IMG/VR virus record: IMGVR_UViG_2724679538_000009 | Length of the DNA: 17,415 nt | Reading direction: 5' to 3' (one strand) | Source of the DNA: a virus | Lineage: Duplodnaviria; Heunggongvirae; Uroviricota; Caudoviricetes | In this document: positions 1 through 15,652 of the stretch, one piece after another | Numbering within the stretch: position 1 is the first letter of the stretch | How the letters are laid out: the number at the start of each line of letters is the position of its first letter | Program-made: the position numbers and the translations under genes | The notes under the pieces: generated by a model | What the model was told of the DNA's origin: nothing | The model's input: only the letters and a program-made list of their open reading frames with translations | Databases searched by the model: none

Positions 1-345
1 TTACATCCGACGTTGCTGCTGTTTTTCTGCGTGCACCCGCTTCACAATCTTATAAATCCATTGCAGCGTCAGATTATATTTCTTCGCTAATTCGGCGTAG
101 TTGCGCCCATCGCACTCGCTATAGATTTGGTAGTCACGCTCCGATGCTCGTCCGGAGATCCCCTTAGGGAAATAAATGCTTTGTCCGCCCCAGTTACGCA
201 TCATTCGGTCGGCAATGGCAAAGCCCACATTTTCTGCCGATGAACTGTCGAGATTGATGCTTTCAATCAGAACTTGCGATGCATGAAAAGCCAGGTCGTT
301 AATGATCTCCGGTGTCCGGGCCATCTCTTTTGATTTTCGTATCAT
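1..345 (-). CDS. Mor-family transcriptional activator (Mu Mor/C-like)
   Basis: Complete 114-aa ORF (ATG at 343-345 on minus strand, GGAG about 8 nt upstream). Contains the GGQSIYFPKG motif matching the Mor GGxQVYIPRG signature and a C-terminal helix-turn-helix-like segment (RNYAELAKKYNLTLQWIYKIVKRV). Transcribed divergently from the lysis/tail genes. Confidence 0.75.
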   Translation of the reverse strand: MIRKSKEMARTPEIINDLAFHASQVLIESINLDSSSAENVGFAIADRMMRNWGGQSIYFPKGISGRASERDYQIYSECDGRNYAELAKKYNLTLQWIYKIVKRVHAEKQQQRRM

Positions 346-566
346 TTTTCATCTCCATATATCTTGCATCCTGAATAAGACCCGATGCGTGTAAAACCAC
401 GGATATACGCTAAGCAGTTGTCATTACTGCTACTCAATACATTCAACAAACAAATAAACAATTAACAAAAATATAAATTTTTAATATTAATGAACGCCAT
501 AAATTCATGAAATAGATATATTGTTTGCGTTATGTTTCTTGTCAACAGGTGTATCATTTTACACGA

Positions 567-586
567 TACTGTATACACATACAGTA
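567..586. promoter_or_regulatory. Candidate LexA (SOS) box TACTGTATACACATACAGTA
   Basis: Perfect CTGT-N8-ACAG dyad with flanking TA; 18 of 20 positions match the E. coli LexA consensus TACTGTATATATATACAGTA. Lies in the 537-bp divergent control region between the Mor-like gene and the lysis/tail operon. Confidence 0.55.
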
Positions 587-882
587 TTATTTTTACTTGT
601 AGTGTAAAAAGATCGTTTCCCTCACAGTCGCTGACTTTCTTAAACAAACTTTAAAAATCAAATAACTATCGAATATTCCTACGATCCACCATCATCTTTC
701 CCCTGCATAATGATGCACTTGTTCGCCAGGTCACCTTTTGCTCTTTTATTGACGGGTGGATTTATTAGCGGGCATGTTCATTTATAGAGAATCTATTTTT
801 TAAACTTATTTATTAAAGCTTTTTTCATTCTTCACTGGCGGGTTCTGACGACACTAAACGCTCATTTATCAGGAGATATCGT

Positions 883-1170
883 ATGAAAAAAATCACATTT
901 CCCCGGCTTTCCGGCTGGCTGGTCGCTTCCGTCGCGCTGTTTGTCGTGATCGGCTGGACCTCTTCAGCACAAATCCCGGTCGTCATTTATAAACTAAGCC
1001 TGGTTTCGCTTTCCGCGGTGCTGGGATACTGGCTCGATCGCAGTTTGTTCCCCTGGGCACGGCCTGACTCTTTTTGCCCCTGGAAGGAACCGCGTTGCTG
1101 CGCGGCGGCAATGATTCGCCGGGCTATCATCGTTGCTGCCGTCTGCCTTTCCGTCGCGTTAGGGCTATAG
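883..1170 (+). CDS. Small membrane protein, putative holin/pinholin
   Basis: 95-aa ORF with AGGAG 7 nt upstream of the ATG. Two to three hydrophobic transmembrane-like segments and a charged C-terminal region. Sits immediately upstream of, and is coupled to, the endolysin gene. Confidence 0.4.
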   Translation: MKKITFPRLSGWLVASVALFVVIGWTSSAQIPVVIYKLSLVSLSAVLGYWLDRSLFPWARPDSFCPWKEPRCCAAAMIRRAIIVAAVCLSVALGL

Positions 1171-1172
1171 TG

Positions 1173-1778
1173 ATGTGGCTGAAATATATCGCGTCTATGA
1201 TTATTTTCGTTCTTTTCCCACTCAACGCCTCTGAACCGCCGAGAGCCTCTCTGGCATGGCGAAACGAACTAATTCGTACCGCTCGAGAAGTCTGGGGACT
1301 GAATGCCCCAGTGGCCGACTTTGCCGGGCAATTACACCAGGAGTCCGCCTGGCAGCCAATGGTACGTTCCCCCGTTGGCGCACAAGGTATGGCGCAATTC
1401 ATGCCTGCTACAGCGACATGGGTAAGCCAGTTGTATCCGCAGTTGCGTGAAAACAAACCGTATAACCCAACCTGGGCGATTCGCGCGCTGGTGCAATATG
1501 ACCAGCATTTGTGGAAAAACATCTCTGCGAAAAATGATTGTCAGCGTATGGCGTTTACCCTAAGCGCCTATAACGGCGGTCAGGGATGGGTTAATCGGGA
1601 TAAAAAACTGGCTGTATCCAAAGGGCTAGATGCCACTCTCTGGTTTGGTCATGTTGAGCAAGTCAACGCCGGGCGCAGCGCCACGAACTGGCGAGAAAAT
1701 CGTCGCTATCCAAAGATGATTCTCTATCAACACGCCGCCCGCTATTTACTCTGGGGACAGGCAAGCTGTCTTCACTAA
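1173..1778 (+). CDS. Lytic transglycosylase (SLT-domain) endolysin with N-terminal signal/SAR-like hydrophobic segment
   Basis: SLT signature HQESAW...SPVGAQGMAQFMPATA (catalytic Glu-Ser, GxxGxMQ). N-terminus MWLKYIASMIIFVLFPLNA is hydrophobic. Start placed at ATG 1173, 2 nt after the holin stop, rather than the overlapping upstream ATG at 1074. Confidence 0.75.
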   Translation: MWLKYIASMIIFVLFPLNASEPPRASLAWRNELIRTAREVWGLNAPVADFAGQLHQESAWQPMVRSPVGAQGMAQFMPATATWVSQLYPQLRENKPYNPTWAIRALVQYDQHLWKNISAKNDCQRMAFTLSAYNGGQGWVNRDKKLAVSKGLDATLWFGHVEQVNAGRSATNWRENRRYPKMILYQHAARYLLWGQASCLH

Positions 1779-1790
1779 TCAGAGGGGCCG

Positions 1791-2105
1791 ATGAAACTCA
1801 GTATCGATTTTTGGGAAGTGATCTCCCTTATGCTTTCCTTCGTTGGATTAATGTTTGCTGCCGGAAAATTGCTGTTAGCGCAAATTGAAAAAAGACTTAA
1901 TGAGCGTTTTGAATCTCTGGAAAACGCGCGCCGGGAATCAGAAACAAACTGGTCGAAACTGGAAAGAGAATTTCTCGAATTTCGTGCCGAGCTTCCGCTG
2001 CATTATGTCCGCAGAGAAGATTATCTTCGTGGCCAGGCAGTATTAGAAGCAAAGCTGGATGCCTTATATAGCAAAATAGAGCTATTACAACGCGGTAGCT
2101 ATTAA
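1791..2105 (+). CDS. Bitopic membrane protein with periplasmic coiled-coil (i-spanin- or releasin-like lysis accessory protein)
   Basis: 104 aa; N-terminal transmembrane helix (ISLMLSFVGLMFAAGKLLLA) followed by a charged heptad-rich helical region; GAGGGG Shine-Dalgarno upstream. No embedded lipoprotein (o-spanin) ORF was found. Confidence 0.45.
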   Translation: MKLSIDFWEVISLMLSFVGLMFAAGKLLLAQIEKRLNERFESLENARRESETNWSKLEREFLEFRAELPLHYVRREDYLRGQAVLEAKLDALYSKIELLQRGSY

Positions 2106-2222
2106 ATTCAATTTTTTCTCTAAAGCAGATTAAAAGATCCTTCACCTTCACTACGTCAGAATACATTTCAACGATAACGAAGTGAGCGTTAACGAATCAG
2201 CGATAATTAAGGGACACCCTAT

Positions 2223-2678
2223 ATGGAAATTTTATCAGTAATGAATTCTGTTGTGACCAGATTATGTGAACAGAATCCCGAAATGGATGTATCTATTTCA
2301 TCGGTTGATGCCCATAAATATATTCCGCAGACGCAGCAAGTTACAGTGATTATTAATTATAGCGGTTCTCTATTTGCCATGTCTGAAAGCAGTGATGCTC
2401 TCGTGCAACAGCAAACGCTCCGTTTAACTGCCACCGTTATTGTTGGCAAAAATTGTGACGCGTTAAACGCACTGGACCGCATACGCAGCGCACTGGGGGG
2501 GATCCAGCTTCCTGATTGCGAGCGTCTTCTTTGGCTTGAAAAAGAAATCAATGCAGGCGAGAGCGGTGGTTTCTGCCGCTACATCCTGGAAATGGCGACC
2601 AGCTCGCTGTTTATCGCGAAACGGGAAAGCACGGACCTTACCCTGCTTACTGAAGTTAATTACGAGGAAACTGAATGA
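2223..2678 (+). CDS. Hypothetical acidic protein (possible tail completion/virion protein)
   Basis: 151-aa ORF with an SD-like AAGGGA upstream. Translationally coupled to the next ORF (ATGA overlap). Position between the lysis cassette and the sheath gene. No recognisable motif. Confidence 0.45.
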   Translation: MEILSVMNSVVTRLCEQNPEMDVSISSVDAHKYIPQTQQVTVIINYSGSLFAMSESSDALVQQQTLRLTATVIVGKNCDALNALDRIRSALGGIQLPDCERLLWLEKEINAGESGGFCRYILEMATSSLFIAKRESTDLTLLTEVNYEETE

Positions 2679-2872
2679 AATACATCTACAACGGCCCGGC
2701 AAGCGGCGTCACCCTTGCCGACGGACAAGAAATCTTATTGTGGCCGAACAGTGAAATTGATCTGCCAGAAGACAACGAGTGGGTCATGACCATGATTGCC
2801 CGCAATCATCTGACTCCTGTCATCACTCAGGAAGAACAAAATAACGGAGAGGAAATTGTACATGGCAGCTAA
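2675..2872 (+). CDS. Small hypothetical protein
   Basis: 65-aa ORF, ATGA-coupled to the upstream ORF and overlapping the sheath start by 11 nt. Acidic; function unknown. Confidence 0.35.
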   Translation: MKYIYNGPASGVTLADGQEILLWPNSEIDLPEDNEWVMTMIARNHLTPVITQEEQNNGEEIVHGS

Positions 2873-4283
2873 TTATCTGCACGGTGTAGAAACCATTGAA
2901 ATTGAAACCGGCCCGCGTCCGGTTAAAGCGGTAAAATCCGCCGTCATCGCTTTAATCGGTACGGCCCCCTGTGGTCCGGTAAATAAACCAACATTATGCC
3001 TTTCTGAAAGCGATGCTGCGCAGTTTGGTTCGACTCAGGCTAACTTTACGATCCCGCAGGCGTTAAAGGCGATTTACGACCATGGCGCCGGTACAGTGGT
3101 GGTAATTAATGTGCTGGATCCGGTAAAACATGGACTGCATGTTGCCAATGAAACTATTACGTTCAATAGTGCCGATAAAGCTAAATTAGCTCATCCGGGA
3201 GTAAGTTCAGTAATATTAAGACCAAGTACCAATTCCACTACGTACAAAAATACATCTTACAATGTTAATGCTGCAGATGGCGTTATTACCCGTACCGGAA
3301 CTGAAATCCCGGCAGGGGCGAAGGTTTACGCGACGTATACCTATGTTGACCCTACAAAGGTCACCGCAGCCGATATTATCGGTGCCGTTAATACCGCAGG
3401 CGATCGCACGGGGATGAAACTGCTACAGGACACCTATAACCTGTATGGTTTCTACGCCAAAATCCTGCTTGCTCCCGTGTTCTGTACGCAAAAATCAGTA
3501 ACTACCGAGCTGATTGCACAAGCGGAAAAACTTGGTGCGATTACCTACATTGATGCCCCGATTGGGACGACATTCCAGCAGGTATTGGCAGGACGCGGTT
3601 CGCAAGGGGCTATCAACTTCAACACCAGCTCTGATCGTGCGCGTTTATGTTACCCACACGTCAAAGTTTACGATGGCATCACTAACCAGGAAGTTCTCGA
3701 ACCGCTCTCTTCGCGCGCTGCCGGGCTACGTGCCAAAGTAGACCTCGAAAAAGGTTTCTGGTGGAGCAACTCAAACCAGGAAATTCAGGGTATTACCGGT
3801 ATTGAACGTTCGCTTTCCGCAATGATTGATGATCCTCAAAGCGAAGTGAATCAGCTCAACGAAAACGGCATTACCACTATTTTCAATAGTTACGGCTCTG
3901 GTCTGCGCTTGTGGGGCAACCGCACAGCGGCATGGCCTACCGTGACCCATATGCGTAACTTTGAAAACGCCCGCCGGACAGGCGATGTAATTAATGAGTC
4001 AATCCGTTATTTCAGTCAGCAGTATATTGATATGCCGATTAATCAGGCGCTGATTGATGCCCTGACCGAATCGGTAAATACCTGGGGCCGTAAGCTGATT
4101 GCCGACGGCGCACTGCTTGGCTTTGAGTGCTGGTACGATCCGGCGCGAAATTCACCGACCGAACTCAGCGCCGGGCATTTATTGCTGAGCTATAAATTCA
4201 CCCCGCCACCGCCGCTGGAACGTCTGACGTTTGAAACTGAAATTACTTCTGAATATTTAGTCTCTCTGGAGAGCAATAGCTAA
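2862..4283 (+). CDS. Contractile tail sheath protein
   Basis: 473 aa from ATG 2862 (GGAGAGGAA upstream; the ORF track uses an upstream TTG at 2856). Size and position immediately upstream of the tube gene are typical of Mu gpL / P2 FI-type sheath proteins. Confidence 0.85.
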   Translation: MAANYLHGVETIEIETGPRPVKAVKSAVIALIGTAPCGPVNKPTLCLSESDAAQFGSTQANFTIPQALKAIYDHGAGTVVVINVLDPVKHGLHVANETITFNSADKAKLAHPGVSSVILRPSTNSTTYKNTSYNVNAADGVITRTGTEIPAGAKVYATYTYVDPTKVTAADIIGAVNTAGDRTGMKLLQDTYNLYGFYAKILLAPVFCTQKSVTTELIAQAEKLGAITYIDAPIGTTFQQVLAGRGSQGAINFNTSSDRARLCYPHVKVYDGITNQEVLEPLSSRAAGLRAKVDLEKGFWWSNSNQEIQGITGIERSLSAMIDDPQSEVNQLNENGITTIFNSYGSGLRLWGNRTAAWPTVTHMRNFENARRTGDVINESIRYFSQQYIDMPINQALIDALTESVNTWGRKLIADGALLGFECWYDPARNSPTELSAGHLLLSYKFTPPPPLERLTFETEITSEYLVSLESNS

Positions 4284-4807
4284 TGGCTGGAAAAATTCAA
4301 ATTAACCGTATTACCAACGCCAATATTTATCTCGATGGTAATAACCTTTTAGGTCGTGCAACCGAAATTAAATTGCCGGATGTCAGTTTAATTATGCAAG
4401 AGCATAAGGCACTGGGTATGGTCGGCAAAATCGAACTCCCGGCAGGTTTCGATAAACTGGAGGGCGAAATTAAATGGAACTCCTTTTATCAGGACGTCAT
4501 GCGTAAAACGGCAAACCCGTGGCAGGCGGTGGCATTACAGTGCCGCTCCAGTATTGATTGCTATAACTCCCAGGGGAAAGCGAATCAATTAGCGTTAGTG
4601 ACACATTTAACCGTGATGTTTAAAAAAAATCCCCTGGGCACATTTAAACAGAATGAAAACCCGGAATTCAGCAGCGCCTTTGGCTGTACTTATATTAAAC
4701 AGGTGGTCGATGGTGAAACACTGCTGGAGCTGGATTACCTGGCGAATATTTTCCGCGTTAACGGCGTGGATCAATTAAGTACCTATCGCAATAACATCGG
4801 TGGCTAA
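4283..4807 (+). CDS. Tail tube protein (P2 FII-like)
   Basis: 174 aa; TAATG stop-start overlap with the sheath gene; size and order match tail tube proteins. Confidence 0.8.
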   Translation: MAGKIQINRITNANIYLDGNNLLGRATEIKLPDVSLIMQEHKALGMVGKIELPAGFDKLEGEIKWNSFYQDVMRKTANPWQAVALQCRSSIDCYNSQGKANQLALVTHLTVMFKKNPLGTFKQNENPEFSSAFGCTYIKQVVDGETLLELDYLANIFRVNGVDQLSTYRNNIGG

Positions 4808-4811
4808 GTTA

Positions 4812-4831
4812 TTCGGGGCTACGGCCCCGAA
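4812..4831 (+). terminator. Stable stem-loop immediately downstream of the tube gene (possible partial terminator/attenuator)
   Basis: ttcggggc-tacg-gccccgaa forms an 8-bp GC-rich stem with a 4-nt loop, 5 nt after the tube stop codon. No downstream U-run, so not a canonical intrinsic terminator. Confidence 0.3.
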
Positions 4832-4857
4832 CTTCGCAAAATAAATAAGGATACAAA

Positions 4858-5175
4858 ATGAAAGAGCATTATATCTTACAGTTCCCGTTTACTTCAGCGG
4901 CGGGAGACGTAATTAACACTCTGCAATTACGTCGCCTGAAAGTAAAAGATATGCGCAACGCGCGCCGGATCAGCGAAAAGCCAGAAGAGTGGGATGAACC
5001 GCTGATGGCGGCGATGACCGGACTGGTGCCAGAAGATTTAGCTGAAATGGATTTGCTGGATTACCAGGCATTGCAGAAACGATTTCAATCCATGCTTAGC
5101 GTGGCTACAGAATCCGCCACTGTTATGGCAAGCGATGGCGTTACTGGCGAGATGGTTTCGCTTTCCGCCCAGTGA
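4858..5175 (+). CDS. Tail assembly chaperone (gpE/G-like)
   Basis: 105-aa acidic ORF between tube and tape-measure genes, the conserved position of the frameshifted chaperone pair in long-tailed phages. A +1-frame continuation is open to 5263. Confidence 0.55.
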   Translation: MKEHYILQFPFTSAAGDVINTLQLRRLKVKDMRNARRISEKPEEWDEPLMAAMTGLVPEDLAEMDLLDYQALQKRFQSMLSVATESATVMASDGVTGEMVSLSAQ

Positions 5176-5251
5176 GATAGACGCCCTTACCGTCGATGAC
5201 TTTAGCAACTGGCTGGATGAAGCCAGCGCCCAAATAAAAATCGAATATGAC

Positions 5252-5272
5252 TCGCAGACCTGATGTCTGCGA
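5252..5272 (+). other. Perfect 8-bp inverted repeat (tcgcagac-ctgat-gtctgcga) in the chaperone-tape measure spacer
   Basis: Read directly from sequence. Overlaps the end of the +1-frame extension (stop at 5261-5263). No following U-run. Confidence 0.4.
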
Positions 5273-5363: not shown

Positions 5364-7739
5364 TTGGCCAACGATATTATTACCCAGCTTCAGGCGCGTA
5401 ATGAGACGTTGACGCAGGCAATAGCCCGTTACGGCTCACTCAACGCCAGAACATTGTTAGCTCTCTCTACTCAGCAAGCGACAGTTATCAAACTAACGCA
5501 GCGGCTTGCCGATTCCGCTCTCCGCCTGGAGGAAAATAGCCGCAGCCGCGCTAATCTGATGGAGAAAACCCACACATTTGCCGGGCAATTTAGCAAAGTA
5601 TTCAATGTTGAAGCCCCCGACTGGAAGTTGCCGTATGAGTTCCAGGACAACATGGTCAATATGGCGACCAAAGGTGGGATGAATGATACAACTCGCGAGA
5701 CGCTCAGCCTTAATCTGCGCGACTGGAGCATGGATTTTAACCAGCATCAGACCACCTTACAGAACGCAGCCCAAACGCTGATCGAAGGCAATTTGTCGTC
5801 GATACAGGATCTCAACCGTTATATGCCGGAGATCGCCAAAGCTGCCACCGCCACGCGCGAAAGTGCTGAAACATGGGCGAATGCCGCGCTCGCAACCCAT
5901 GATCGACTGAATATTGCGCCAGAAAATTTCCACGTCGCGCAAAACATGATGTACGGCATTAGCAAAAGCGGTGGGCCTGCCGTTGCCGAGCAAACGCTGT
6001 GGATAGACAAATTTGCAGGTAAAACCGGCGCTCAGGGTCTGGAAGGTATGGCTGAACTGACTGCCGCCATGCAGATCGCCATGAAAAACGGAGCCAGCGC
6101 CAGTGCGGCGGCGGAGAATTTCGACCACTTTCTGCAAACCACCTTTTCGAAAAAGACCGATAACTGGTTCGCCAGCCAGGGCGTCGATCTGCAAGGCTCT
6201 CTGCTTGAACATCAGCAAAACGGTATGGGTGTTAGCGAAGCCATGACTCATATCGTACAAATGCAGCTTGAGAAGATGAATCCGGCGATCCTCGACACCT
6301 TCAAACGCACTATGCAGATTGAAGATTTATCTGCTCGCAGCAATGCGCTGCAATCGATGGTGACGCAATTTAATCTAGGCGAAATGTTCGGCGATGCGCA
6401 AACGGTGGAATTCCTGGCACCTATGCTGGCGAATATGGAGGAATATCGCCAGTTAAAAACCTCTGCCATGCAAGCCACCAGCAAGAATCTGATTGATGCC
6501 GACTTTTCTGCGCAAATGGCCTCGCCCATTGAACAGACTAAAGCGTTACAGCTGGCGTTAAATGATTTATGGCTCAGCATTGGCTTGCAATTAATGCCGC
6601 TGATTGGCGAGCTGGCACAAAGCCTTACGCCGGTTATTCGTCAGTTCAGCGCCTGGCTACGTGAGCACCCGACACTGGTGCAAAACATCGCGAAAATCGT
6701 CGGGGCGATTTGGCTGTTTAACGGTGCGCTGAATGTTTTAAAGCTGGGCGCGAACCTCATCACCTCGCCGTTTATTCGTCTGGTCGATATCTTCCTGAAA
6801 GTCAAGGCAAGTCTGGCGCTCACAGGCGGGGCAAGTAAGATGCTATCAGCGGTTAAGTCATTGGGTGGCGGCGCAAAATGGCTAATGCAACTGCTTGGTC
6901 GTGGCCTGATTAGCGCACTGAAACAGGTAGGTCAGACCGTCTTCTGGTTGGGTAGGGTTTTATTGATGAATCCCATTGGCCTGGTCATCACCGCAATTGC
7001 GGGTGCTGCTTATCTGATTTATCGCAACTGGGAGCCTATCTCCAGGTTCTTTTCGACCATCTGGCAACGTATCACCACGGCCTTTGACGGCGGTATTGCA
7101 GGGATTTGCCGGTTGATTCTCGACTGGTCGCCGCTGGCTTTGTTCTATAGCGCCTTTTCCAGTGTGATGAATTGGTTTGGTGTCGAGATGCCTGCAAGTT
7201 TTAGCGAGTTCGGCAGCAATCTTCTGGGCAGTCTGGTTGACGGCATAATGAATGCCTTCCCCGCTCTGAAAGGCATTATTGATCAGGTAAAAAACGTCAT
7301 CCCAGACTGGCTAAAAACCACGATGGGTATTAGTACAGAAGGATCGGCTACAGCTATTACAAGCACGACTAATACCGCATCCGTCTCCCCCGCGACCGTT
7401 GTTCCAGGCGTTGCCGGTGCGATTTTAACGCCTCCGGTGGGGAAACAACTCGCGCCATCCAGTAAAACGACAACGCCGCCATCGGCACCTGCGGCAAAAA
7501 ATACAGCCGCCAAACCCGCATCGGCCTCTTTACCAGGTAAATCCGTAACCAAACCGGCGACGCTACCTTCCCGTTCCTCTGGAAAAGTTCAGGTGAATTT
7601 TTCGCCACAGATTACCGTGCAGGGTAACGGACAAAACACCACTAAAGAGATTCAGAACGTGTTGACGATGAGTAAACGCGAACTGGAAAGAATGATTAAC
7701 GACGTAATGGCGCAGCAGCAGCGCCGGGGGTATGCCTGA
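5364..7739 (+). CDS. Tail tape measure protein
   Basis: 791 aa; helical N-terminal half, hydrophobic central segments, Pro/Thr/Ala/Ser-rich C-terminal region; located between chaperone and baseplate genes. The only start after the in-frame stop at 5325-5327 is TTG at 5364 (AAGAG upstream), so the start codon is uncertain. Confidence 0.8.
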   Translation: MANDIITQLQARNETLTQAIARYGSLNARTLLALSTQQATVIKLTQRLADSALRLEENSRSRANLMEKTHTFAGQFSKVFNVEAPDWKLPYEFQDNMVNMATKGGMNDTTRETLSLNLRDWSMDFNQHQTTLQNAAQTLIEGNLSSIQDLNRYMPEIAKAATATRESAETWANAALATHDRLNIAPENFHVAQNMMYGISKSGGPAVAEQTLWIDKFAGKTGAQGLEGMAELTAAMQIAMKNGASASAAAENFDHFLQTTFSKKTDNWFASQGVDLQGSLLEHQQNGMGVSEAMTHIVQMQLEKMNPAILDTFKRTMQIEDLSARSNALQSMVTQFNLGEMFGDAQTVEFLAPMLANMEEYRQLKTSAMQATSKNLIDADFSAQMASPIEQTKALQLALNDLWLSIGLQLMPLIGELAQSLTPVIRQFSAWLREHPTLVQNIAKIVGAIWLFNGALNVLKLGANLITSPFIRLVDIFLKVKASLALTGGASKMLSAVKSLGGGAKWLMQLLGRGLISALKQVGQTVFWLGRVLLMNPIGLVITAIAGAAYLIYRNWEPISRFFSTIWQRITTAFDGGIAGICRLILDWSPLALFYSAFSSVMNWFGVEMPASFSEFGSNLLGSLVDGIMNAFPALKGIIDQVKNVIPDWLKTTMGISTEGSATAITSTTNTASVSPATVVPGVAGAILTPPVGKQLAPSSKTTTPPSAPAAKNTAAKPASASLPGKSVTKPATLPSRSSGKVQVNFSPQITVQGNGQNTTKEIQNVLTMSKRELERMINDVMAQQQRRGYA

Positions 7740-8692: not shown

Positions 8693-8901
8693 TGCGATAC
8701 CTTGAACATATCACCACCGACGGCGAACGCTGGGATAATCTGGCATGGCATTACTATGGCGATGCGCTGGCTTATGAACGCATTATCGCCGCCAATCCAC
8801 ATGTCGCCATTTACCCGGTACTACCTTCCGGTATTCAGCTCATCATTCCGGTCATTTCCGTCAACAAAACCGTATCGGAGATCCCACCATGGCTGAGATA
8901 A
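8692..8901 (+). CDS. Tail protein X-like (P2 gpX family, LysM-like)
   Basis: 69 aa from ATG 8692 (AGGAG 6 nt upstream, TGATG overlap). Pattern DGERWDNLAWHYYGD...AANPHV resembles P2 gpX (GDTLDAICVRYYGR...AANPGL) as recalled. Confidence 0.6.
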   Translation: MRYLEHITTDGERWDNLAWHYYGDALAYERIIAANPHVAIYPVLPSGIQLIIPVISVNKTVSEIPPWLR

Positions 8902-9929: not shown

Positions 9930-9938
9930 GGAGGAAAT

Positions 9939-10640
9939 ATGAAAGGAGTAACCCGGCAAACGGGGATTATCAGCGATATTGACGAAACCAGCGTTCGGGT
10001 GCGGGTCACGCTCCCGGAGTGTGACAACCTGAAGAGCAACTGGCTTGCGGTACTTCAACGCAATTCCCAGGACAATAAAGACTACTGGCTACCGGATATG
10101 GGCGAGCAAGTGGAAGTTCTGCTGGACAATAACGGTGAAGATGGCGTGGTGCTGGGCGCAGTTTATTCTACGGTTGACACCGCGCCTGTGGCCTCGCGCG
10201 ATAAACGTTACGTCCAGTTTTCTGATGGCGCAGCGTTTGAATATGACCGCAGCACGCACCAGCTGACGATTAACGGCGGTATCGAGAAAATCGTGATTGA
10301 GGTTATCGACAGTACCCGCCTGACATCACCCAACGTTGAGATTAAAGCCCAACAGGTCATCGTGACTTCCGATACTGTCGATGTTAAAGCGACCGATGTC
10401 AGCATCGACGCCACTAAGGTCGATGTTAAAGCGGCAGCAGTGACGGTAGACGCGCCCATGAGCACCTTTACTGGCAACGTCACGGTAATGAAAAAACTCA
10501 CCTGGCTTGGCGGGATGGCAGGAAGTGGAGGCATCGGTAACGCCGCCACGATAACTGGCAATGTCAACGTGATCGGCAACGTTCAGGCCAGCGGCGCATT
10601 GCAGGACAGCGGTGGCAACTCCAACCACCATACACACTGA
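9939..10640 (+). CDS. Baseplate spike protein (P2 gpV-like)
   Basis: 233 aa; GGAGG Shine-Dalgarno upstream; repetitive beta-strand-like VDVKA motifs consistent with a beta-helical spike; C-terminus ends in a His cluster (SNHHTH); located directly before the gp25/W-like gene. Confidence 0.7.
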   Translation: MKGVTRQTGIISDIDETSVRVRVTLPECDNLKSNWLAVLQRNSQDNKDYWLPDMGEQVEVLLDNNGEDGVVLGAVYSTVDTAPVASRDKRYVQFSDGAAFEYDRSTHQLTINGGIEKIVIEVIDSTRLTSPNVEIKAQQVIVTSDTVDVKATDVSIDATKVDVKAAAVTVDAPMSTFTGNVTVMKKLTWLGGMAGSGGIGNAATITGNVNVIGNVQASGALQDSGGNSNHHTH

Positions 10641-10645
10641 CGTTT

Positions 10646-10675
10646 AACCCGCCTGATGGCGGGTTTTCTCTTTTT
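10646..10675 (+). terminator. Rho-independent terminator between spike and gp25-like genes
   Basis: aacccgcc-tgat-ggcgggtt is a perfect 8-bp stem with a 4-nt loop, followed by ttctcttttt, 6 nt after the spike stop codon. Confidence 0.65.
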
Positions 10676-10738
10676 AATCAATCAGTTTTCTAAATCGCTT
10701 TAATATCGCCACAGCCCGTTCAGGGCGAAAATACCCTC

Positions 10739-11098
10739 ATGAACACAAAAACACGACCCTCAACGCTGCACTGGCAACCGGCCTTGCAGCGGCCTGAAGA
10801 ATACGTCTGCGGGCTGGATGATATTCACCAGGCGATACACATCATTCTGCGCACACCGCGCGGCAGTGATCCTCACAGACCGCTGTTTGGCAGCAACTTG
10901 TGGCACTACATCGATTACCCCATCGAGCGGGCAATCCCGCATGTGGTACGGGAGTCGGTGGAAGCCATCCGCCAGTGGGAACCGCGCTGTCGGTTGCTGA
11001 AGGTGACACCAGTAATCGACGGTGAACATCTGACGTTACGTGTGCAATGGCGCGCCGCTGACGGCGTTATCAACTCAACGGAGGTGTTATGGCGATAG
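10739..11098 (+). CDS. Baseplate wedge protein (P2 gpW / T4 gp25-like)
   Basis: 119 aa; motifs typical of the GPW/gp25 family (RPLFGSNLWHY, WEPRCRLLKV); overlaps the J-like gene start by 10 nt. Confidence 0.8.
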   Translation: MNTKTRPSTLHWQPALQRPEEYVCGLDDIHQAIHIILRTPRGSDPHRPLFGSNLWHYIDYPIERAIPHVVRESVEAIRQWEPRCRLLKVTPVIDGEHLTLRVQWRAADGVINSTEVLWR

Positions 11099-12204
11099 CC
11101 GAACCCAATTTTATTGACCGCGATCCTGCGCAAATTACCAGTGAGATGATTGCGCAATATGAAGATGCCAGCGGTAAAAAACTCTATCCGGCACAGGCTG
11201 AGCGGTTGCTCATCGACCTGTTTGCCTATCGTGAAAACCTTGTACGCATCGCCATTCAGGAAGCGGCGAAACAAAACCTGGTCGCGTATTCCCGCGCGCC
11301 AATGCTGGATTATTTAGGGGAGTTGGTGGGAGTTCACCGTTTGCCTGCGCAGCCTGCAAAAACGACGTTGCAGTTTTCGGTCGTCAGTGCGTATACCAGC
11401 AATATCCTGATTCCCCAGGGGACGCGGGCCAGTGCTTCTGATAGCGTGATGTTCGCCACCGATGAAGATGTTCTGCTTCCGGCCAGGAGTTTGCATATCG
11501 CCGTTCCTGCCACCAGCCTCGCAGCAGGTGAACAGGGCAACGGCTGGCAGCCTGCACAAATTAGCGCACTGGTCGACAGGATTGGTCATTATGACATCAA
11601 CGTAACCAACCTGACTGCGTCAACGGGCGGCTGCGGTGAAGAGAGCGATGACGCATTGCGCCAGCGTATCCAACTGGCACCAGAAAGCTTTAGTAATGCG
11701 GGCAGCTATGGCGCATACCGCTTTCATACGCTTTCTGTTAGCCAGTCGATTATTGACGTTGCAGTACTGGGGCCGGACGAGGGATTGCCAGAAGGCTGCG
11801 TGGAGATCTACCCGCTAACCCTGAACGGACTGCCAGGAATAGAACTGCTCGCGCAAATCGAACAGGAGGTTAGCAAGGAGAAAAAACGTCCGCTGACCGA
11901 CAAAGTGAGTGCGAAATGCGCTCTTCGAGTGCCGTATGAGATCCGTGCTCAGCTAACGCTGTTTACCACCGCCGATCAGGAGACAACGCTGGCTGCGGCG
12001 CGTAAAGCGATTAGCCTCTGGACGCAACAGCGGCAGAAACATCTGGGGCAGGACATTGTGCCAAACCAGATAATCAAAGTGTTACAGGTCGATGGCGTCT
12101 ATGACGTTGCGCTGAATATGCCTACAAAACGTATTTTGCAGGCGCATGAATGGGCGGAATGCACTGCAATAGACGTCACGATTGCCGGAGTCAGCGATGG
12201 ATAA
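11089..12204 (+). CDS. Baseplate J-like protein (P2 gpJ / Mu gp47 family)
   Basis: 371 aa; GGAGG 4-5 nt upstream; position between W-like and I-like genes. Confidence 0.85.
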   Translation: MAIAEPNFIDRDPAQITSEMIAQYEDASGKKLYPAQAERLLIDLFAYRENLVRIAIQEAAKQNLVAYSRAPMLDYLGELVGVHRLPAQPAKTTLQFSVVSAYTSNILIPQGTRASASDSVMFATDEDVLLPARSLHIAVPATSLAAGEQGNGWQPAQISALVDRIGHYDINVTNLTASTGGCGEESDDALRQRIQLAPESFSNAGSYGAYRFHTLSVSQSIIDVAVLGPDEGLPEGCVEIYPLTLNGLPGIELLAQIEQEVSKEKKRPLTDKVSAKCALRVPYEIRAQLTLFTTADQETTLAAARKAISLWTQQRQKHLGQDIVPNQIIKVLQVDGVYDVALNMPTKRILQAHEWAECTAIDVTIAGVSDG

Positions 12205-12916
12205 ATTGCTGCCACCGCCGCCGCTTGCCAGCGATGAGCGTTTTTCGATTCTGGCAAACATCGCCGCCGAGCGTTTTGCCCAACTCGATCTGACGGCGTT
12301 GATGGTTTATCTGGTCGACCTGGTTGATGCTTCGGCATTACCAGCCCTTGCAGAACAATTTCACGTTCAGGGGCTGGAAGGTTGGTTATTTACCACCGAT
12401 GAGCGGGAGAAGCGCGAGTTAATTAAACAAGCCATTGAACTGCATAAATATAAAGGAACAATTTGGGCGGTACGGCGGGTGCTGGAAATACTTTCCTTAC
12501 CCGGAACTATTTCAGAATGGTTTGAATATGGGGGAAGGGCTTATTTTTTTAAGGTAAATATTACACTAGAGGAAAAAGGATTAAATAAAGATGAATTCAA
12601 TGCACTTATCACATTAATTCATGAATATAAAAATGTTCGTTCAAAGCTGGAAAGCATTGTTATTTGGCTTATTAATCGAAGCCCAATACCAGTTATTGGC
12701 AGCGCCATGCAAGGAGGGGAAGTCATTACAGTATTGCCTCCTGTTGCAGAAAGCCTCAGCCAGTCATCAGGAATATTTTTGGCGACGGGTTATTGTGTGG
12801 AGGAATATATCCAACTACTACCTTATCAACCCGATCGCCTTACACAATCCCAACCGATGAAGGTCGGCACAGGATACTGGAGCACCGAAATTATGTCTGT
12901 ATATCCGGAGGAATAA
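12197..12916 (+). CDS. Tail protein I-like (P2 gpI family)
   Basis: 239 aa from ATG 12197 (GGAG 6 nt upstream; the track start is TTG 12182). [17 protein letters not shown] matches the P2 gpI CHKGTIGAIRRVVEPL region as recalled; C-terminal ...SVYPEE resembles the gpI ...VITVYPG end. C-terminal half is AT-rich. Confidence 0.8.
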
Positions 12917-14496
12917 TGGCAAGTGAATTTTTTACAATATTAACTACTGCAGGCAAAGCCAAAATTGCCTCTGCATTGACGGAGCAAAAACAGATCCGTC
13001 TGCAAACTATGGTAGTTGGCGACGGTAATGGTAAATATATCGAACCGACAGAAAGTCAGACTAAAGTAGTCCATGAGGTCTGGCGTGGTCAGCTCAATAC
13101 ATTAAAAATTGCGCCAGATAATCCGGCCTGGGTTATCGCAGAAGCGATTATTCCCGAACAAGTCGGAGGCTGGTATGTACGCGAAGTTGGGTTACTGGAT
13201 ACCGACGGCACGCTGGTCGCTATTGGTAAATTTCCGGAAACCTATAAGCCACGATTACCTGCGGGGGCCAGTAAGCAAATCGTTATACGCGCGGTCATGG
13301 AAGTCACCAATGCAGACGCGGTGACGCTTTTGATCGACCCTTCAGTCGTTGTGGCAACCAGGGAATATGTCGATGACGCGTTGAAAACACATCAGCAATC
13401 ACGAAATCATCCTGATGCGACGCTAACACAAAAAGGTTTTACACTGCTGAGCAATGCGACTAATAGCGATGATGAAACCAAAGCTGCCACACCAAAAGCG
13501 GTAAAAACGGCATATGACCTGGCAAATAGCAAAGCTGCCACCAGTCATAATCATGCCTGGAATCAGATTACTGGTATCCCTGATGGTACACTGACGCAGA
13601 AAGGAGTCGTTAAACTTAACAACACAACAAATAGCACCAGTACAACGGAAGCTGCAACGCCAAGTGCTGTTAAAGCAGCGATGGACAAGGCTATTGCTGC
13701 GGCACCGTCCAGCCATACCCATGCCTGGGGGCAAATAACAGGTATCCCCGACGGTACGCTGACACAAAAAGGGGTCGTGAAACTTAATAATGCGACCAAC
13801 AGCACCAGTACGACGGAAGCTGCAACGCCGAACGCGGTTAAGGCAGCGATGGATAAGGCTATTGCTGCGGAAAGCTGTCCTGTAGGGATGCCTATACCCT
13901 GGCCATCTGATTCTGTACCTTCAGGCTACGCTCTGATGACTGGTCAGACATTTAATAAAACCTCCTATCCCAAACTGGCAATTGCATATCCATCTGGCGT
14001 TATTCCTGATATGCGCGGATGGATAATTAAAGGAAAACCATCCAGTGGGCGCGCTATATTATCTACTGAACTGGATGGAGTTAAATCACATAACCATACG
14101 GGCAGTATTTCTAGTACCAATTTAGGGACAATAACATCTACCTCTACGGACTTAGGAACAAAAACTACAGCTTCATTTAATCATGGAAGTAGAAATACAA
14201 GCACATCTGGAGAACATACACACCGAATACCAACTGATGGTGCAGAAGGTAAAGATGGACCGTCTTTATGGAACAGCCCCAATTCAGATGAGAACTACAG
14301 AGAACCTACTGAGTCTGCTGGTAGTCATTATCATAGTATTACGATTGGCGCCCATGCACATACAATCGCACTGGGAAGTCATACACATAATATTGTGTTA
14401 GGTACACATAATCACTCAATTATCATCAATAACACTGGCAATACAGAAAATACTGTTAAAAACATTGCATTCAATTATATTGTGAGGCTTGCATGA
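12916..14496 (+). CDS. Tail fibre protein (P2 gpH-like N-terminus, repeat-containing shaft, His-box C-terminal tip)
   Basis: 526 aa from ATG 12916 (GGAGG 6 nt upstream). N-terminal ~200 aa closely track P2 gpH as recalled ([41 protein letters not shown]...[14 protein letters not shown]). Contains 56-aa tandem repeats and C-terminal HxH motifs ([32 protein letters not shown]). Confidence 0.85.
13420..13870 (+). repeat. In-frame tandem direct repeats, 168-bp period (about 2.7 copies) inside the tail fibre gene
   Basis: Units begin at 13420, 13588 and 13756, each encoding TLTQKG(V/F)..[27 protein letters not shown]...[12 protein letters not shown]. Copies 2 and 3 are near-identical at DNA level. 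Confidence 0.75.
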
Positions 14497-15200
14497 ATAC
14501 TTTTACTTTTTCCGATAACGCACAAATTTTATCTGTTTTTAATTTTTCACCAGACACACAAGAATTTATTGGTGAGTCCAATGTATATATAGCACCAAAC
14601 ACTGGACTACCGAATTACTGCACATTAACACCACCACCACAAAAAATTGCAGGTTTTACTTCTATATGGTCAATTAATAAATGGGAACTTATTGAAGATC
14701 ATCGAGGCCAAACTGTTTATAACAAAGTTGATGGCAGCCAGATTATTATTAATAAATTGGGTCAATTGCCTGAAACTGTCACCATCATTTCCCCTACCAG
14801 TACTTTTGAGCGTTGGGATGGCGAAAAATGGCAGCCATCAATTGATGATGCTAAACAGGCGAAATGTGCCGAAATCAAAACATTGCGCGACTCCATCACT
14901 ACCGACTACATCATCATCAACGACAATTACTTCCACAGTGATACAAGCAGCCGCATCCAACAACTCTCACTCACAAAAATGGGAGCGGAGAAAAAAATTC
15001 CGCCAGGTTTAATGTGGAAAACTAAAAATAATGGTCTGACTGAGTTAACCAACGAAATCGCTGCCCAGTTTGAATCCGTCACAATGGATCACGATATACG
15101 CTTGTTTGCCAACGCCCAACGCCATATCGCGGCGGTGGAAGCTCTGGACGATATTCAGTCGGTACTCGACTACGATTATTCAACAGGCTGGCAACCATGA
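14493..15200 (+). CDS. Tail fibre assembly protein (lambda Tfa / P2 gpG family)
   Basis: 235 aa; ATGA overlap with the fibre stop. N-terminal region [32 protein letters not shown]...[13 protein letters not shown] parallels lambda Tfa (EFIGEGDAYIPPHTGLP...PPDIPAGF...WHLVEDHRGKTVY) as recalled. Confidence 0.8.
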
Positions 15201-15652
15201 GTAAAACTACAGTCTGGCTCGCTTGCTATAAAGGGCGAACAGAGCACCGGGTTATTGCGAGACTGGCTGACTGGCTTACACGCAAAATCACTCGCGGCAG
15301 TTATTCCCACTGTGAATTAGCCGTAGCACATGGAGAAAAGAGTTACCTTTGTTACTCCGCCTCTCTGCGCGATCGAGGCGTTCGTGGAAAGATAATGCCT
15401 TTACCGCCAGACAAGTGGGATATGCTGCCGCTCCAGGTCAGCCTTCAGGATGTAGAAGCTTTTTTCCGTAAACATGATGGCAAAAAATACGACTGGCGTG
15501 GAGCCTTAGGAATTATCACCGGCAATAAAGAACAGCGCGATCGCCTGTTTTGTAGCGAATTTTGTGCCGAATTTCTGCAATTAAAAGAAAGTTGGCGCTA
15601 TTCCCCAAACCACTTGTACGCTTTAGTTAACAGTTGGCAATATCAACCATAA
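15197..15652 (+). CDS. Putative permuted papain-fold (YiiX/YaeF C92 / LRAT-like) thiol enzyme
   Basis: 151 aa; ATGA-coupled to the tfa stop. His-containing N-terminal motif (GSYSHCELAVAHG) and C-terminal GKKYDW...RLFCSEF resemble the GxxYDF...YCSEV signature of YiiX-type permuted NlpC/P60 proteins as recalled. No transmembrane segment. Confidence 0.4.
   Translation: MSKTTVWLACYKGRTEHRVIARLADWLTRKITRGSYSHCELAVAHGEKSYLCYSASLRDRGVRGKIMPLPPDKWDMLPLQVSLQDVEAFFRKHDGKKYDWRGALGIITGNKEQRDRLFCSEFCAEFLQLKESWRYSPNHLYALVNSWQYQP

What the first reader, a model, noticed from the sequence alone, without database searches (positions are those of the whole stretch)
1..15652. Head-less Mu/P2-like contractile tail cluster with its own lysis cassette and divergent Mor activator: candidate R-type tailocin
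The window encodes a complete set of tail parts (sheath, tube, chaperone, tape measure, U, X, D hub, V spike, gp25/W, J, I, fibre, Tfa) plus pinholin-like protein, SAR-type transglycosylase and a lysis accessory protein. The lysis genes are separated from the sheath gene by only two small ORFs. In Mu the whole head module sits between lys and the tail genes, and in P2 between lysis and tail; here no capsid, portal, protease or terminase gene is present. The Mor-like activator is transcribed divergently, unlike Mu. This regulator + lysis + tail architecture is that of phage-tail-like bacteriocins (R-pyocins, Mu-derived Pseudomonas tailocins). I cannot recall a characterised Mu-like tailocin of this layout in enterobacteria.
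Basis: partly seen in the sequence, partly recalled or inferred. Interest (0 to 1): 0.8.

Follow-up and report, generated by a model that had tools for sequence, protein, structure and literature searches.

The report
SOS-wired headless phage-tail (tailocin) cluster
This Escherichia fergusonii island is a phage that has lost its head and copying genes but kept an intact contractile tail, cell-bursting genes and a switch tied to the host's DNA-damage alarm, so it is most likely a protein weapon against rival bacteria; it belongs to a known kind of system.

Summary
Window 1-15680 carries 20 intact genes: a Mor-family activator, holin, lytic transglycosylase, a gp25-like membrane protein, and a complete contractile tail from tail terminator to fibre chaperone. 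There are no head, terminase, transposase or integrase genes in the window. None lie beside it in the source species, E. fergusonii, where the left flank is a zeta-toxin gene, lysC and pgi.

The cluster derives from a BcepMu-type phage, not from Mu or P2 proper. In BcepMu the Mor gene already lies at the left end on the opposite strand, so the "divergent Mor" is ancestral.

The island is the ortholog of Salmonella LT2 "Def4" (STM4196-4219). It sits at the same lysC site in five genera. Every gene is full length there, with dN/dS 0.02-0.24.

A near-consensus LexA box lies between mor and the holin gene in all seven such loci. I found no comparable box in the related complete phages or in the other head-less relatives. 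Late-promoter motifs shared with complete phages precede the tail operons.

Pectobacterium's characterised tailocin carotovoricin is a homologous head-less cluster (sheath 75% identical).

Verdict: a probable SOS-inducible R-type tailocin, a new member of a known kind. Particle production and killing are untested. No spanin genes are present.

The parts
1..345 (-). Mor/C-family late transcription activator (114 aa)
   Evidence: Pfam Mor E=4e-38. 44% identical to PhiKM protein C and about 50% to BcepMu gp01. dN/dS 0.04. Directly follows lysC in five genera.
567..586 (.). LexA (SOS) box TACTGTATACACATACAGTA, with a conserved flank CATTTTACAC at 555-564
   Evidence: The only CTGT-N8-ACAG in the window. 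It matches the consensus at 18 of 20 positions. It is conserved at the same place in all 7 Def4-type loci from 5 genera, within a poorly conserved spacer. No box scoring above 13 of 20 occurs in the fetched DNA of complete BcepMu-like phages, carotovoricin loci or transposase-bearing head-less relatives.
636..656 (+). Copy of the late-promoter-like motif TTTCTTAAACAAACTTTAAAA (candidate lysis-operon control element)
   Evidence: One of only three plus-strand matches to TTT..TAAA-N5-9-TTAAWA in the window; 0.07 expected by chance. Found by the motif search in 4 of the 7 Def4-type loci and recognisable in a fifth in the spacer alignment.
797..820 (+). Conserved AT-rich block TTTTTAAACTTATTTATTAAAG, about 60 nt upstream of the holin gene
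   Evidence: Present once per locus in all 7 Def4-type loci and nowhere else in the fetched loci. Its role is inferred only.
883..1170 (+). Holin (95 aa, three hydrophobic segments)
   Evidence: Pfam Holin_2-3 E=2e-27. PHROG holin E=1e-35. Hydropathy profile. dN/dS 0.05-0.08 across genera, 0.35 against the near-identical E. coli copy.
1173..1778 (+). Lytic transglycosylase endolysin (201 aa) with an N-terminal hydrophobic signal or anchor
   Evidence: Pfam SLT E=3e-14. Homolog of BcepMu gp22. Hydrophobic residues 1-17.
1791..2105 (+). gp25-like membrane protein (one N-terminal transmembrane segment, then a charged, probably helical tail); lysis accessory protein
   Evidence: 51% identical to BcepMu/PhiKM gp25. 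PHROG 462 E=3e-34. dN/dS 0.02-0.08.
2115..2135 (+). Late-promoter motif TTTCTCTAAAGCAGATTAAAA upstream of gp37
   Evidence: Conserved in Def4-type, carotovoricin and Brenneria head-less loci. Nearly identical to the motif upstream of the protease/capsid operon in complete phages PhiKM and a Buttiauxella prophage.
2223..2678 (+). Gp37 tail terminator / collar protein (151 aa)
   Evidence: Pfam Gp37 E=1e-31. PDB 2GJV (a Salmonella typhimurium protein) E=1.7e-52. Foldseek matches lambda gpU, T5 p142, the Mu terminator, and the pyocin R2 and diffocin collars (the model has low confidence).
2675..2872 (+). gp38-like small tail protein (65 aa)
   Evidence: 47-58% identical to BcepMu/PhiKM gp38. PHROG 895 E=5e-35. 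dN/dS about 0.1.
2862..4283 (+). Tail sheath
   Evidence: Pfam Phage_sheath_1 and Phage_sheath_1C. 71% identical to BcepMu gp39. Matches pyocin R2 sheath PA0622 at E=3e-45.
4283..4807 (+). Tail tube
   Evidence: Pfam Phage_tube E=5e-56. dN/dS 0.01-0.05.
4858..5175 (+). Tail assembly chaperone (gpE-like)
   Evidence: Pfam Phage_TAC_7 E=4e-18.
5074..5262 (+). Overlapping +1-frame GpE'-like extension with an invariant candidate recoding site CAGAAACGATTTCA (5074-5087)
   Evidence: Weak Pfam Phage_P2_GpE match, E=0.002. The peptide is conserved in 60 loci, including a complete phage and carotovoricin loci. The nucleotide stretch is nearly invariant at the frame junction (one G/A difference in the 8 loci compared).
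5364..7739 (+). Tape measure protein
   Evidence: Pfam PhageMin_Tail. Full length in all orthologs.
7739..8692 (+). gpU-like tail protein with a coiled-coil C-terminus
   Evidence: Pfam Phage_P2_GpU E=7e-34. PHROG 788 full-length match, E=1e-129.
8692..8901 (+). gpX tail protein
   Evidence: Pfam Phage_tail_X E=1.5e-23.
8889..9929 (+). gpD baseplate hub
   Evidence: Pfam Phage_GPD. 346 aa in the E. coli, Salmonella and E. fergusonii gene calls and full-length in all six orthologs compared.
9939..10640 (+). gpV spike
   Evidence: Pfam Phage_base_V.
10646..10675 (+). Intrinsic terminator after V
   Evidence: 8-bp GC-rich stem followed by a T tract.
10686..10705 (+). Late-promoter motif TTTTCTAAATCGCTTTAATA upstream of W
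   Evidence: Conserved in all 7 Def4-type loci, including Salmonella, where it lies downstream of the inserted gtr operon. The same motif sits upstream of W in phage PhiKM and in carotovoricin loci.
10739..11098 (+). gpW/gp25 baseplate wedge protein
   Evidence: Pfam GPW_gp25. dN/dS 0.04.
11089..12204 (+). gpJ baseplate protein
   Evidence: Pfam Baseplate_J E=2e-62.
12197..12916 (+). gpI baseplate protein
   Evidence: Pfam Tail_P2_I E=1e-32.
12919..14496 (+). Tail fibre (conserved N-terminus, exchangeable C-terminal tip)
   Evidence: Pfam Phage_tail_fib, Phage_fiber_2 and Collar. Only the N-terminal 42-61% aligns across genera. The tip is 57-62% identical to fibre tips of lambdoid, P2-like and T4-like coliphages.
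14493..15200 (+). Tail fibre assembly protein (Tfa-like)
   Evidence: Pfam Caudo_TAP and DUF4376. PHROG 1807 and 105.
15197..15652 (+). 151-aa protein of unknown function; last gene of the fibre operon
   Evidence: PHROG 1128 E=6e-59, categorised as a moron. Ortholog of STM4198.
15658..15676 (.). GC-rich hairpin closing the cluster
   Evidence: 8-bp stem with 7 GC pairs.

Best explanation
The island is a domesticated BcepMu-type transposable prophage. It has lost its early/transposition block, its spanins and its whole head module. It has kept the late activator, a holin-endolysin cassette and a complete contractile tail.

Proposed sequence of events:
1. DNA damage inactivates host LexA, which otherwise occupies the box at 567-586.
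2. The Mor-family activator is made.
3. Mor turns on late promoters carrying a shared motif ahead of (i) holin-endolysin-gp25, (ii) terminator-sheath-tube-chaperone-tape measure-U-X-D-V and (iii) W-J-I-fibre-Tfa.
4. Head-less contractile particles assemble.
5. Holin and transglycosylase lyse the producer cell and release them.
6. The particles bind related enterobacteria through an exchangeable fibre tip and kill them by puncturing the envelope. This is the action of an R-type tailocin, a relative of carotovoricin.

Shown here: gene content; absence of head and mobility genes in and around the cluster; orthology and same-site conservation; purifying selection; conservation of the LexA box and the promoter motifs.

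Inferred: which promoter LexA controls; that Mor acts on the motifs; that particles are made, released and bactericidal.
For: Gene content: the tail gene set is complete relative to the functional phage BcepMu, gp37 through gp52. It includes the terminator/collar protein that pyocin R2, diffocin and monocin also keep and a conserved chaperone recoding pair.

Context: core genes flank the island and no head genes are nearby.

Conservation: the arrangement pgi-lysC-mor-lysis-tail is the same in Escherichia, Salmonella, Superficieibacter, Phytobacter and Dryocola. All 20 genes are full length in E. coli and Salmonella, and the 18 genes from mor to the fibre N-terminus in all six orthologous loci, with dN/dS 0.02-0.24 in cross-genus comparisons and all but one E. 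coli comparison (holin 0.35). dS is 0.6 to above 2, comparable to the flanking core genes, which give 0.7-1.5 between E. coli and Salmonella.

Regulation: a LexA box matching the consensus at 17-19 of 20 positions is conserved in 7 of 7 loci. No box scoring above 13 of 20 occurs in the fetched DNA of complete phages or other head-less relatives. The late-promoter motif that precedes the capsid operon and W in complete phages PhiKM and a Buttiauxella prophage now sits directly before gp37 and W. It was retained between deleted blocks. Terminators separate the units.

Target recognition: the fibre tip and chaperone are swapped between genera and resemble coliphage fibre tips.

Known relative: carotovoricin loci, identified by their TolC-family boundary gene, are homologous with the same layout.
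Against: - No experiment here or in the searched literature shows particles or killing from this island. Published work labels the Salmonella ortholog a short prophage remnant.
- There is no Rz/Rz1 spanin or lipobox ORF in the lysis cassette, unlike BcepMu and carotovoricin. Release may therefore be inefficient.
- The island is patchy in E. coli: about 160-220 of 5426 complete genomes.
- In the IAI39-type E. coli lineage an IS element splits the LexA box.
- Low dN/dS could partly reflect divergence that occurred while the ancestors were still phages. The shared deletions and shared site argue against this.
- The promoter assignments rest on sequence patterns only.
Confidence: 0.65

Rival explanations
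1. The island is an inert, slowly decaying prophage remnant (the published 'Def4' label) with no present function. Its intactness would be a leftover of recent phage ancestry.
For: The literature calls the Salmonella ortholog a short prophage remnant. Spanins are missing. The island is absent from most E. coli genomes, and an IS interrupts the control region in one lineage.
Against: The genes are full length in the orthologous loci of five genera, at one chromosomal site, with dN/dS 0.02-0.24 and saturated dS. The LexA box and promoter motifs are conserved within otherwise diverged spacers. The losses are selective: exactly the head, transposition and repressor genes are gone, while the promoter between two deleted blocks is kept.
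Confidence: 0.1
2. The cluster is functional but is not a bacteriocin. It could be an SOS-triggered altruistic lysis module that releases other goods, a phage-defence device, a source of tails for head-only or tail-defective phages, or an injection device aimed at eukaryotic cells.
For: The lysis cassette has its own transcription unit and terminator in most loci. LexA control is typical of many suicide and release systems. Nothing here shows bactericidal activity.
Against: Selection acts on all structural genes, not only the lysis genes. The fibre tip belongs to the pool of enterobacterial phage fibres and is exchanged like a host-range determinant. There is no toxin cargo, AAA+ ATPase or other marker of extracellular contractile injection systems among the Pfam hits. 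PADLOC found nothing for the 151-aa protein or the right-flank genes, the only window ORFs tested. The closest characterised relative is a bacteriocin.
Confidence: 0.2
3. The cluster is part of a still-mobile element: a head-less satellite-like derivative that depends on a helper BcepMu-like phage for heads, or that transposes.
For: Related head-less clusters in Lelliottia and Brenneria still carry transposase A/B, a repressor-like gene and Mor.
Against: This island has no transposase, repressor or recognisable ends. It occupies the same site in five genera, and only one copy was found per genome in E. coli.
Confidence: 0.05

Closest known systems
Carotovoricin Er (Ctv), the R-type tailocin of Pectobacterium
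   Same: A homologous BcepMu-type head-less cluster with the same order, holin-SLT-...-gp25-...-gp37-gp38-sheath-tube...; sheath and tube are 75-76% identical. The late-promoter motif before gp37 and W is the same, as is the chaperone recoding peptide. It is conserved across its genus at one locus. It is induced by DNA damage.
   Different: Ctv lies between a TolC-family gene and ybiB, not at lysC. It keeps Rz and gp26, which are absent here. It has no adjacent Mor gene and no LexA box in the fetched flanks. From memory, unverified here: Ctv is controlled by the RdgA repressor and the Mor-like RdgB, and has an invertible fibre.
Salmonella Typhimurium LT2 'Def4' (STM4196-STM4219; 'BTP6' in D23580)
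   Same: It is the ortholog. It has the same lysC site, the same gene order from Mor to STM4198, and the same LexA box and promoter blocks. By my recollection (unverified), the crystal structure 2GJV, deposited as a Salmonella typhimurium protein of unknown function, is the Def4 Gp37 ortholog STM4215.
   Different: Salmonella carries a gtrABC O-antigen glucosylation operon inserted between V and W, and an acetyltransferase at the right end. The window instead has a glycosyltransferase moron after the cluster. Nucleotide identity is about 78%. It is described in the literature only as a prophage remnant.
Bcepmuvirus phages (Burkholderia phage BcepMu, Escherichia phage PhiKM)
   Same: Tail, lysis and Mor/C proteins are homologous in the same order. 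Mor/C lies on the opposite strand at the left end.
   Different: The phages also carry transposase A/B, GemA, a repressor, terminase, portal, protease, capsid, gp36 and Rz/Rz1. All are absent here. The phages have no strong LexA box.
R2 pyocin of Pseudomonas aeruginosa
   Same: A head-less contractile tail with a holin/lysin cassette, a positive activator and DNA-damage induction. The sheath is related (E=3e-45), and a collar/terminator protein of the same fold is retained.
   Different: It has a separate P2-like ancestry and gene order. From established knowledge, its regulation runs through PrtN/PrtR rather than Mor and a LexA box.

Membership tests
R-type tailocin (phage tail-like bacteriocin) | Complete contractile-tail structural gene set: terminator, sheath, tube, chaperone, tape measure, hub, spike, wedge, fibre and fibre chaperone | tested here: met
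   Pfam, PHROG and PDB matches for every part. One-to-one with BcepMu gp37-gp52. All full length compared with the orthologs.
R-type tailocin (phage tail-like bacteriocin) | No capsid, portal, terminase, replication/transposition or integration genes in or next to the cluster | tested here: met
   Apart from a PHROG family mislabelled 'portal protein' for Gp37, no such Pfam or PHROG hits, and no tblastn hits in the window for BcepMu/PhiKM head and transposase proteins. Flanks are zeta-toxin/lysC/pgi on the left and a glycosyltransferase, NTase, slipin and yjbD on the right.
R-type tailocin (phage tail-like bacteriocin) | Dedicated lysis cassette for release | tested here: inconclusive
   Holin, SLT endolysin and a gp25-like protein are present and conserved. 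Spanins are absent.
R-type tailocin (phage tail-like bacteriocin) | Stress (SOS) responsive control through a dedicated activator | tested here: inconclusive
   A conserved near-consensus LexA box and a Mor gene are present. Binding and induction were not tested.
R-type tailocin (phage tail-like bacteriocin) | Production of head-less particles that kill related strains | not testable with these tools
   Needs induction, EM and killing assays.
Carotovoricin (Ctv) cluster | Homologous BcepMu-type tail and lysis proteins in Ctv order | tested here: met
   Identity to Pectobacterium loci: sheath 75%, tube 76%, D 58%, J 56%. Shared promoter motifs.
Carotovoricin (Ctv) cluster | Chromosomal position between tolC_2 and ybiB; Rz/Rz1 and gp26 present | tested here: not met
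   The island is at lysC. No Rz or gp26 homologs were found. It is therefore a relative, not the same locus.
Functional Bcepmuvirus prophage | Transposase A/B, repressor, terminase, portal and major capsid genes | tested here: not met
   tblastn with BcepMu and PhiKM proteins finds none of them in the window or in the Def4-type loci.
Mu proper / P2 proper | Mu-type or P2-type gene order and closest similarity | tested here: not met
   The closest phages are all Bcepmuvirus-like. Sheath-first order with baseplate genes downstream follows BcepMu.
Extracellular contractile injection system (Afp/PVC) or T6SS | AAA+ ATPase, toxin cargo, or TssB/C-ClpV and a membrane complex | tested here: not met
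   No such Pfam families among the window ORFs scanned.

The most novel reading that the evidence does not exclude
The 'Def4 remnant' of Salmonella Typhimurium LT2 and its orthologs are one ancient tailocin owned by the host. The orthologs are in E. fergusonii, E. albertii, a minority of E. coli, Superficieibacter, Phytobacter and Dryocola. It was fixed at lysC before these genera split and rewired from phage-repressor control to direct LexA control of a Mor activator. It has been kept as a working weapon ever since. The LPS-modifying cargo repeatedly found in or beside it may protect the producer from its own particles: gtrABC and an acetyltransferase in Salmonella, and a glycosyltransferase in this window.
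Probability: 0.4. Interest if true: 0.7.

Novelty: new member of a known kind. Interest (0 to 1): 0.5.

Why it matters
If the particles are made and kill, then model and clinically important enterobacteria carry an unrecognised SOS-inducible tailocin. These include Salmonella Typhimurium LT2, E. fergusonii, E. albertii and some extraintestinal E. coli lineages. This would affect how strain competition in the gut is interpreted, and what mitomycin or antibiotic treatment does to these strains. It could also provide a native Escherichia/Salmonella chassis for engineered tailocins.

The locus is also a clean example of domestication:
- head, transposition and repressor genes were lost selectively;
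- a late promoter was retained between two deleted blocks;
- a host LexA operator was gained;
- intermediate stages survive in Lelliottia and Brenneria.

If it proves inactive, it is simply a well-preserved prophage remnant.

Tried and rejected
- Literature: ten full-text searches found no paper that treats this island or Def4 as a tailocin. The E. coli ST131 'tailocin' paper concerns a different element, described there as a fully intact prophage. Bobay et al. 2014 is not held.
- RdgB link: I could not verify from the tools that carotovoricin's regulator RdgB is Mor-like. The Mor homolog search returned only close relatives with no RdgB names, and the papers I checked do not mention it. This stays a recollection.
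- RNA scans: Rfam and tRNA scans of the window found nothing.
- Defence and naming libraries: PADLOC gave nothing for the three flanking or unknown window genes tested, and NCBIfam gave only generic transglycosylase hits for the endolysin.
- Gp37 structure: the AlphaFold model was poor (pLDDT 56) because the alignment was shallow. I rely mainly on the direct PDB match 2GJV and treat the fold-search ranking as supporting evidence only.
- Small ORFs: the 61-aa and 53-aa ORFs in the mor-holin spacer have no family support. I treat them as non-coding.
- Sigma-70 scan: the generic scan was no better than shuffled sequence, so promoter inferences rest on cross-species conservation.
- Conserved block at 797-820: I first took it for the Mor site of the lysis operon. 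Its spacing differs from that of the two well-supported motifs, so its role is left open.
- 'Escherichia phage ECO95 1-6-1' fragments: I rejected the idea that they show the cluster in O157. They match at Salmonella-like identity, and the spread listing of E. coli hits, in which at most about 220 genomes match beyond the NTase gene, showed no O157-type cluster.

Full report
**What is in the window**

A Mor-family activator lies on the minus strand at 1-345. A 537-bp spacer follows. Then nineteen plus-strand genes run in this order:
- holin
- SLT-type lytic transglycosylase
- a gp25-like membrane protein
- Gp37
- a 65-aa gp38-like protein
- sheath, tube, tail chaperone, tape measure
- U, X, D, V
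- W, J, I
- fibre, a Tfa-like chaperone and a 151-aa protein

Beyond a GC-rich hairpin at 15658-15676 lie a phage-type glycosyltransferase moron (15866-16594) and a convergent RlaP-family nucleotidyltransferase. No ORF matches a capsid, portal, protease, terminase, integrase or transposase family, setting aside the evidently mislabelled 'portal protein' PHROG family that Gp37 matches.

**Source and flanks**

The exact Gp37 sequence is named as an Escherichia fergusonii protein, including UniProt B7LKZ1_ESCF3, and was seen on 270 contigs. E. fergusonii genomes of 4.5-4.7 Mb match the window at 97.4-99.4%.

In those genomes the DNA left of mor holds a 309-aa zeta-toxin/PezT-like gene, then lysC and pgi. 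In E. coli (95% identical; about 160-220 of 5426 complete genomes) the island lies between lysC and slipin/yjbD/rluF.

**Lineage**

The closest phages are all Bcepmuvirus-like. Sheath identity is 74% to Escherichia phage PhiKM and Klebsiella phage KP12, and 71% to Burkholderia phage BcepMu. The BcepMu map explains the layout:
- Its Mor/C gene (gp01) is the leftmost gene, on the opposite strand, followed by GemA, the transposition genes and the repressor.
- Its right arm runs holin, SLT endolysin, Rz/Rz1, gp25, gp26, terminase through capsid, gp36, gp37, gp38, sheath and onward to the fibre.

The island is this genome minus three blocks: gp02-gp20 (early, transposition and repressor genes), Rz/Rz1, and gp26-gp36 (the head module). 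The divergent Mor is therefore inherited.

Gp37 is not a head protein. It matches PDB 2GJV, a Salmonella typhimurium protein of unknown function, at E=1.7e-52. A low-confidence model of it finds 2GJV first and then, among other neck and connector proteins, tail terminators and tailocin collars: lambda gpU, T5 p142, the Mu terminator, the monocin cap, and the pyocin R2 and diffocin collars. The deletion thus removed the head module exactly up to the first tail gene.

**Orthology and conservation**

The Salmonella Infantis contig, annotated with LT2 locus tags, shows the same island at the same lysC site, covering STM4219 (Mor) to STM4198. A gtrABC operon is inserted between V and W. This is the 'Def4' remnant of LT2, also annotated as 'BTP6' in D23580.

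A scan of one genome per species found the identical architecture, again directly after pgi-lysC, in Superficieibacter (two species), Phytobacter and Dryocola. E. albertii also has it.

Between the window and these loci, every gene from mor to the fibre N-terminus aligns full length without stops. dN/dS is 0.02-0.24 in cross-genus comparisons and all but one E. coli comparison (holin 0.35). dS is 0.6 to above 2. The flanking core genes give dS 0.7-1.5 between E. coli and Salmonella.

Only the fibre tip, the Tfa-like protein and the 151-aa protein are not conserved beyond Escherichia and Salmonella. The tip resembles the fibre tips of lambdoid, P2-like and T4-like coliphages at 57-62% identity. 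This is the pattern expected of an exchangeable receptor-binding module. It is not the pattern of a decaying remnant.

**Regulation**

The only CTGT-N8-ACAG in the window is TACTGTATACACATACAGTA at 567-586, matching the LexA consensus at 18 of 20 positions. Boxes matching at 17-19 of 20 positions occupy the same place in all seven Def4-type loci. They are embedded in a spacer that is otherwise poorly conserved, next to an invariant CATTTTACAC. Read on the minus strand, that flank gives a TAAAAT -10 element pointing at mor. Read on the plus strand, it gives a TTTACA -35 element. Sequence alone does not settle which promoter LexA controls.

No comparable box was found in BcepMu or in the partial PhiKM genome. 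None was found in the fetched parts of other full prophages, in carotovoricin loci, or in the transposase-bearing head-less relatives. The operator therefore appears to be a gain of the domesticated lineage.

A motif, TTT..TAAA-N5-9-TTAAWA, occurs on the plus strand only at 636, 2115 and 10686, against 0.07 expected by chance.
- The copies before gp37 and before W are conserved in all Def4-type loci.
- They match the motifs that precede the protease/capsid operon and W in the complete phage PhiKM and in a Buttiauxella prophage.
- They also match the motifs before gp37 and W in carotovoricin and Brenneria clusters.
- About 22 nt downstream of each lies a -10-like AnACT or AATAC element.

By analogy with Mu late promoters (established knowledge), this is the layout of an activator-dependent promoter. 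The head deletion therefore left the capsid-operon promoter fused to the tail terminator gene.

Terminators follow gp25 (in most loci, but lost in this window) and V. This defines three units: lysis, tail shaft and hub, and baseplate and fibre.

**Comparison with known systems**

The head-less Pectobacterium loci start right after a TolC-family gene, which is the published boundary of the carotovoricin cluster. They share gene order and 56-76% protein identity for the sheath, tube, hub and baseplate proteins with this island. Carotovoricin is a characterised, DNA-damage-induced R-type tailocin. This island is a relative of it at a different locus. It lacks Rz/Rz1 and gp26, and it carries its own adjacent Mor gene and LexA box.

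Other head-less derivatives exist:
- Lelliottia and Brenneria clusters retain transposase A/B and a repressor-like gene.
- Chromobacterium clusters have Mor abutting gp37.

**Weak points**

- No spanin or lipobox ORF is present, so release may be inefficient.
- The island is patchy in E. coli. In the IAI39-type lineage an ISEc53 element carrying a ClbS-like gene is inserted inside the LexA box.
- No experimental evidence for particles or killing was found in ten literature searches. The subscription literature is not covered.

**Verdict**

The lineage label, the significance given to the divergent Mor, and the novelty claim all need correction. I rate it a new member of a known kind, of moderate interest, with clear and inexpensive experiments available.

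Noticed in passing
window 15866-16594 (+): A 242-aa phage-type glycosyltransferase moron (PHROG 1962, E=3e-98) with its own AT-rich upstream region. It is absent from the E. coli version of the island. Salmonella instead has gtrABC inside the cluster and an acetyltransferase at the right end, and BcepMu has an acyltransferase there. Surface-modifying cargo recurs at this element and could protect the producer.
   Followed up: partly
window 16624-17415 (-): An RlaP-family nucleotidyltransferase. In E. coli it is paired with a slipin gene. It is present in more than 1,400 E. coli genomes that lack the tail cluster, so it is a separate, more widespread unit. There was no PADLOC match.
   Followed up: partly
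L083 6678-7607 (immediately left of the window in E. fergusonii): A 309-aa zeta-toxin/PezT-like gene lies between lysC and mor in E. fergusonii. In E. coli only 54 bp separate lysC and mor. No antitoxin gene was looked for.
   Followed up: no
L083 5166-6533 versus L001 13562-14929: lysC is only 85% identical in nucleotides between E. fergusonii and E. coli, while the adjacent pgi is 97%. A sharp divergence step lies right at the island's border.
   Followed up: no
L085 (E. coli IAI39) 3055-4930; equivalent to window ~577-580: An ISEc53 element with a ClbS/DfsB-family gene beside it is inserted exactly inside the LexA box, splitting it. The insertion is listed for N32, AR_0013, CE10, IAI39 and another genome. 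It may uncouple the cluster from SOS control.
   Followed up: partly
L007 (Lelliottia wanjuensis) 2476-9829; L011 and L017 (Brenneria): Head-less BcepMu-type clusters that still carry Mor, transposase A and B and a repressor-like gene. They are either intermediate stages of domestication or possibly transposable tail clusters.
   Followed up: partly
L053, L057, L059 (Chromobacterium): Mor lies directly upstream of gp37-gp38-sheath with no lysis genes between them. This looks like another, apparently independent, head-less arrangement.
   Followed up: no
window 5074-5262: The conserved GpE'-like extension is in the +1 frame relative to the chaperone gene, not -1 as in P2. The same holds in phage PhiKM. 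The stretch CAGAAACGATTTCA at the junction is nearly invariant across diverged loci (CAAAAACGATTTCA in three of the eight compared). This suggests +1 (UUU to UUC) or -2 recoding.
   Followed up: partly
window 2106-2114 versus L001 17091-17130: The intrinsic terminator that follows the gp25-like gene in E. coli, Salmonella, Superficieibacter and Phytobacter is missing from this window (about a 30-nt deletion). Here the lysis and tail-shaft units may be co-transcribed.
   Followed up: no
window 2223-2678 and 3133-3279: Gp37 evolves much faster than its neighbours: 59% identity to Salmonella against 83-91% for them, with dN/dS about 0.2. A short segment of the sheath gene breaks the alignment among E. 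fergusonii strains. Both look like local variability hot spots in particle-surface proteins.
   Followed up: no
phage-collection records OR851066, OR845313, OR851449 and related: Short unannotated 'phage' records (Salmonella phage S.Kent 1-2-1, Escherichia phage ECO95 1-6-1) are fragments of a Salmonella-like copy of this island, not phage genomes.
   Followed up: partly
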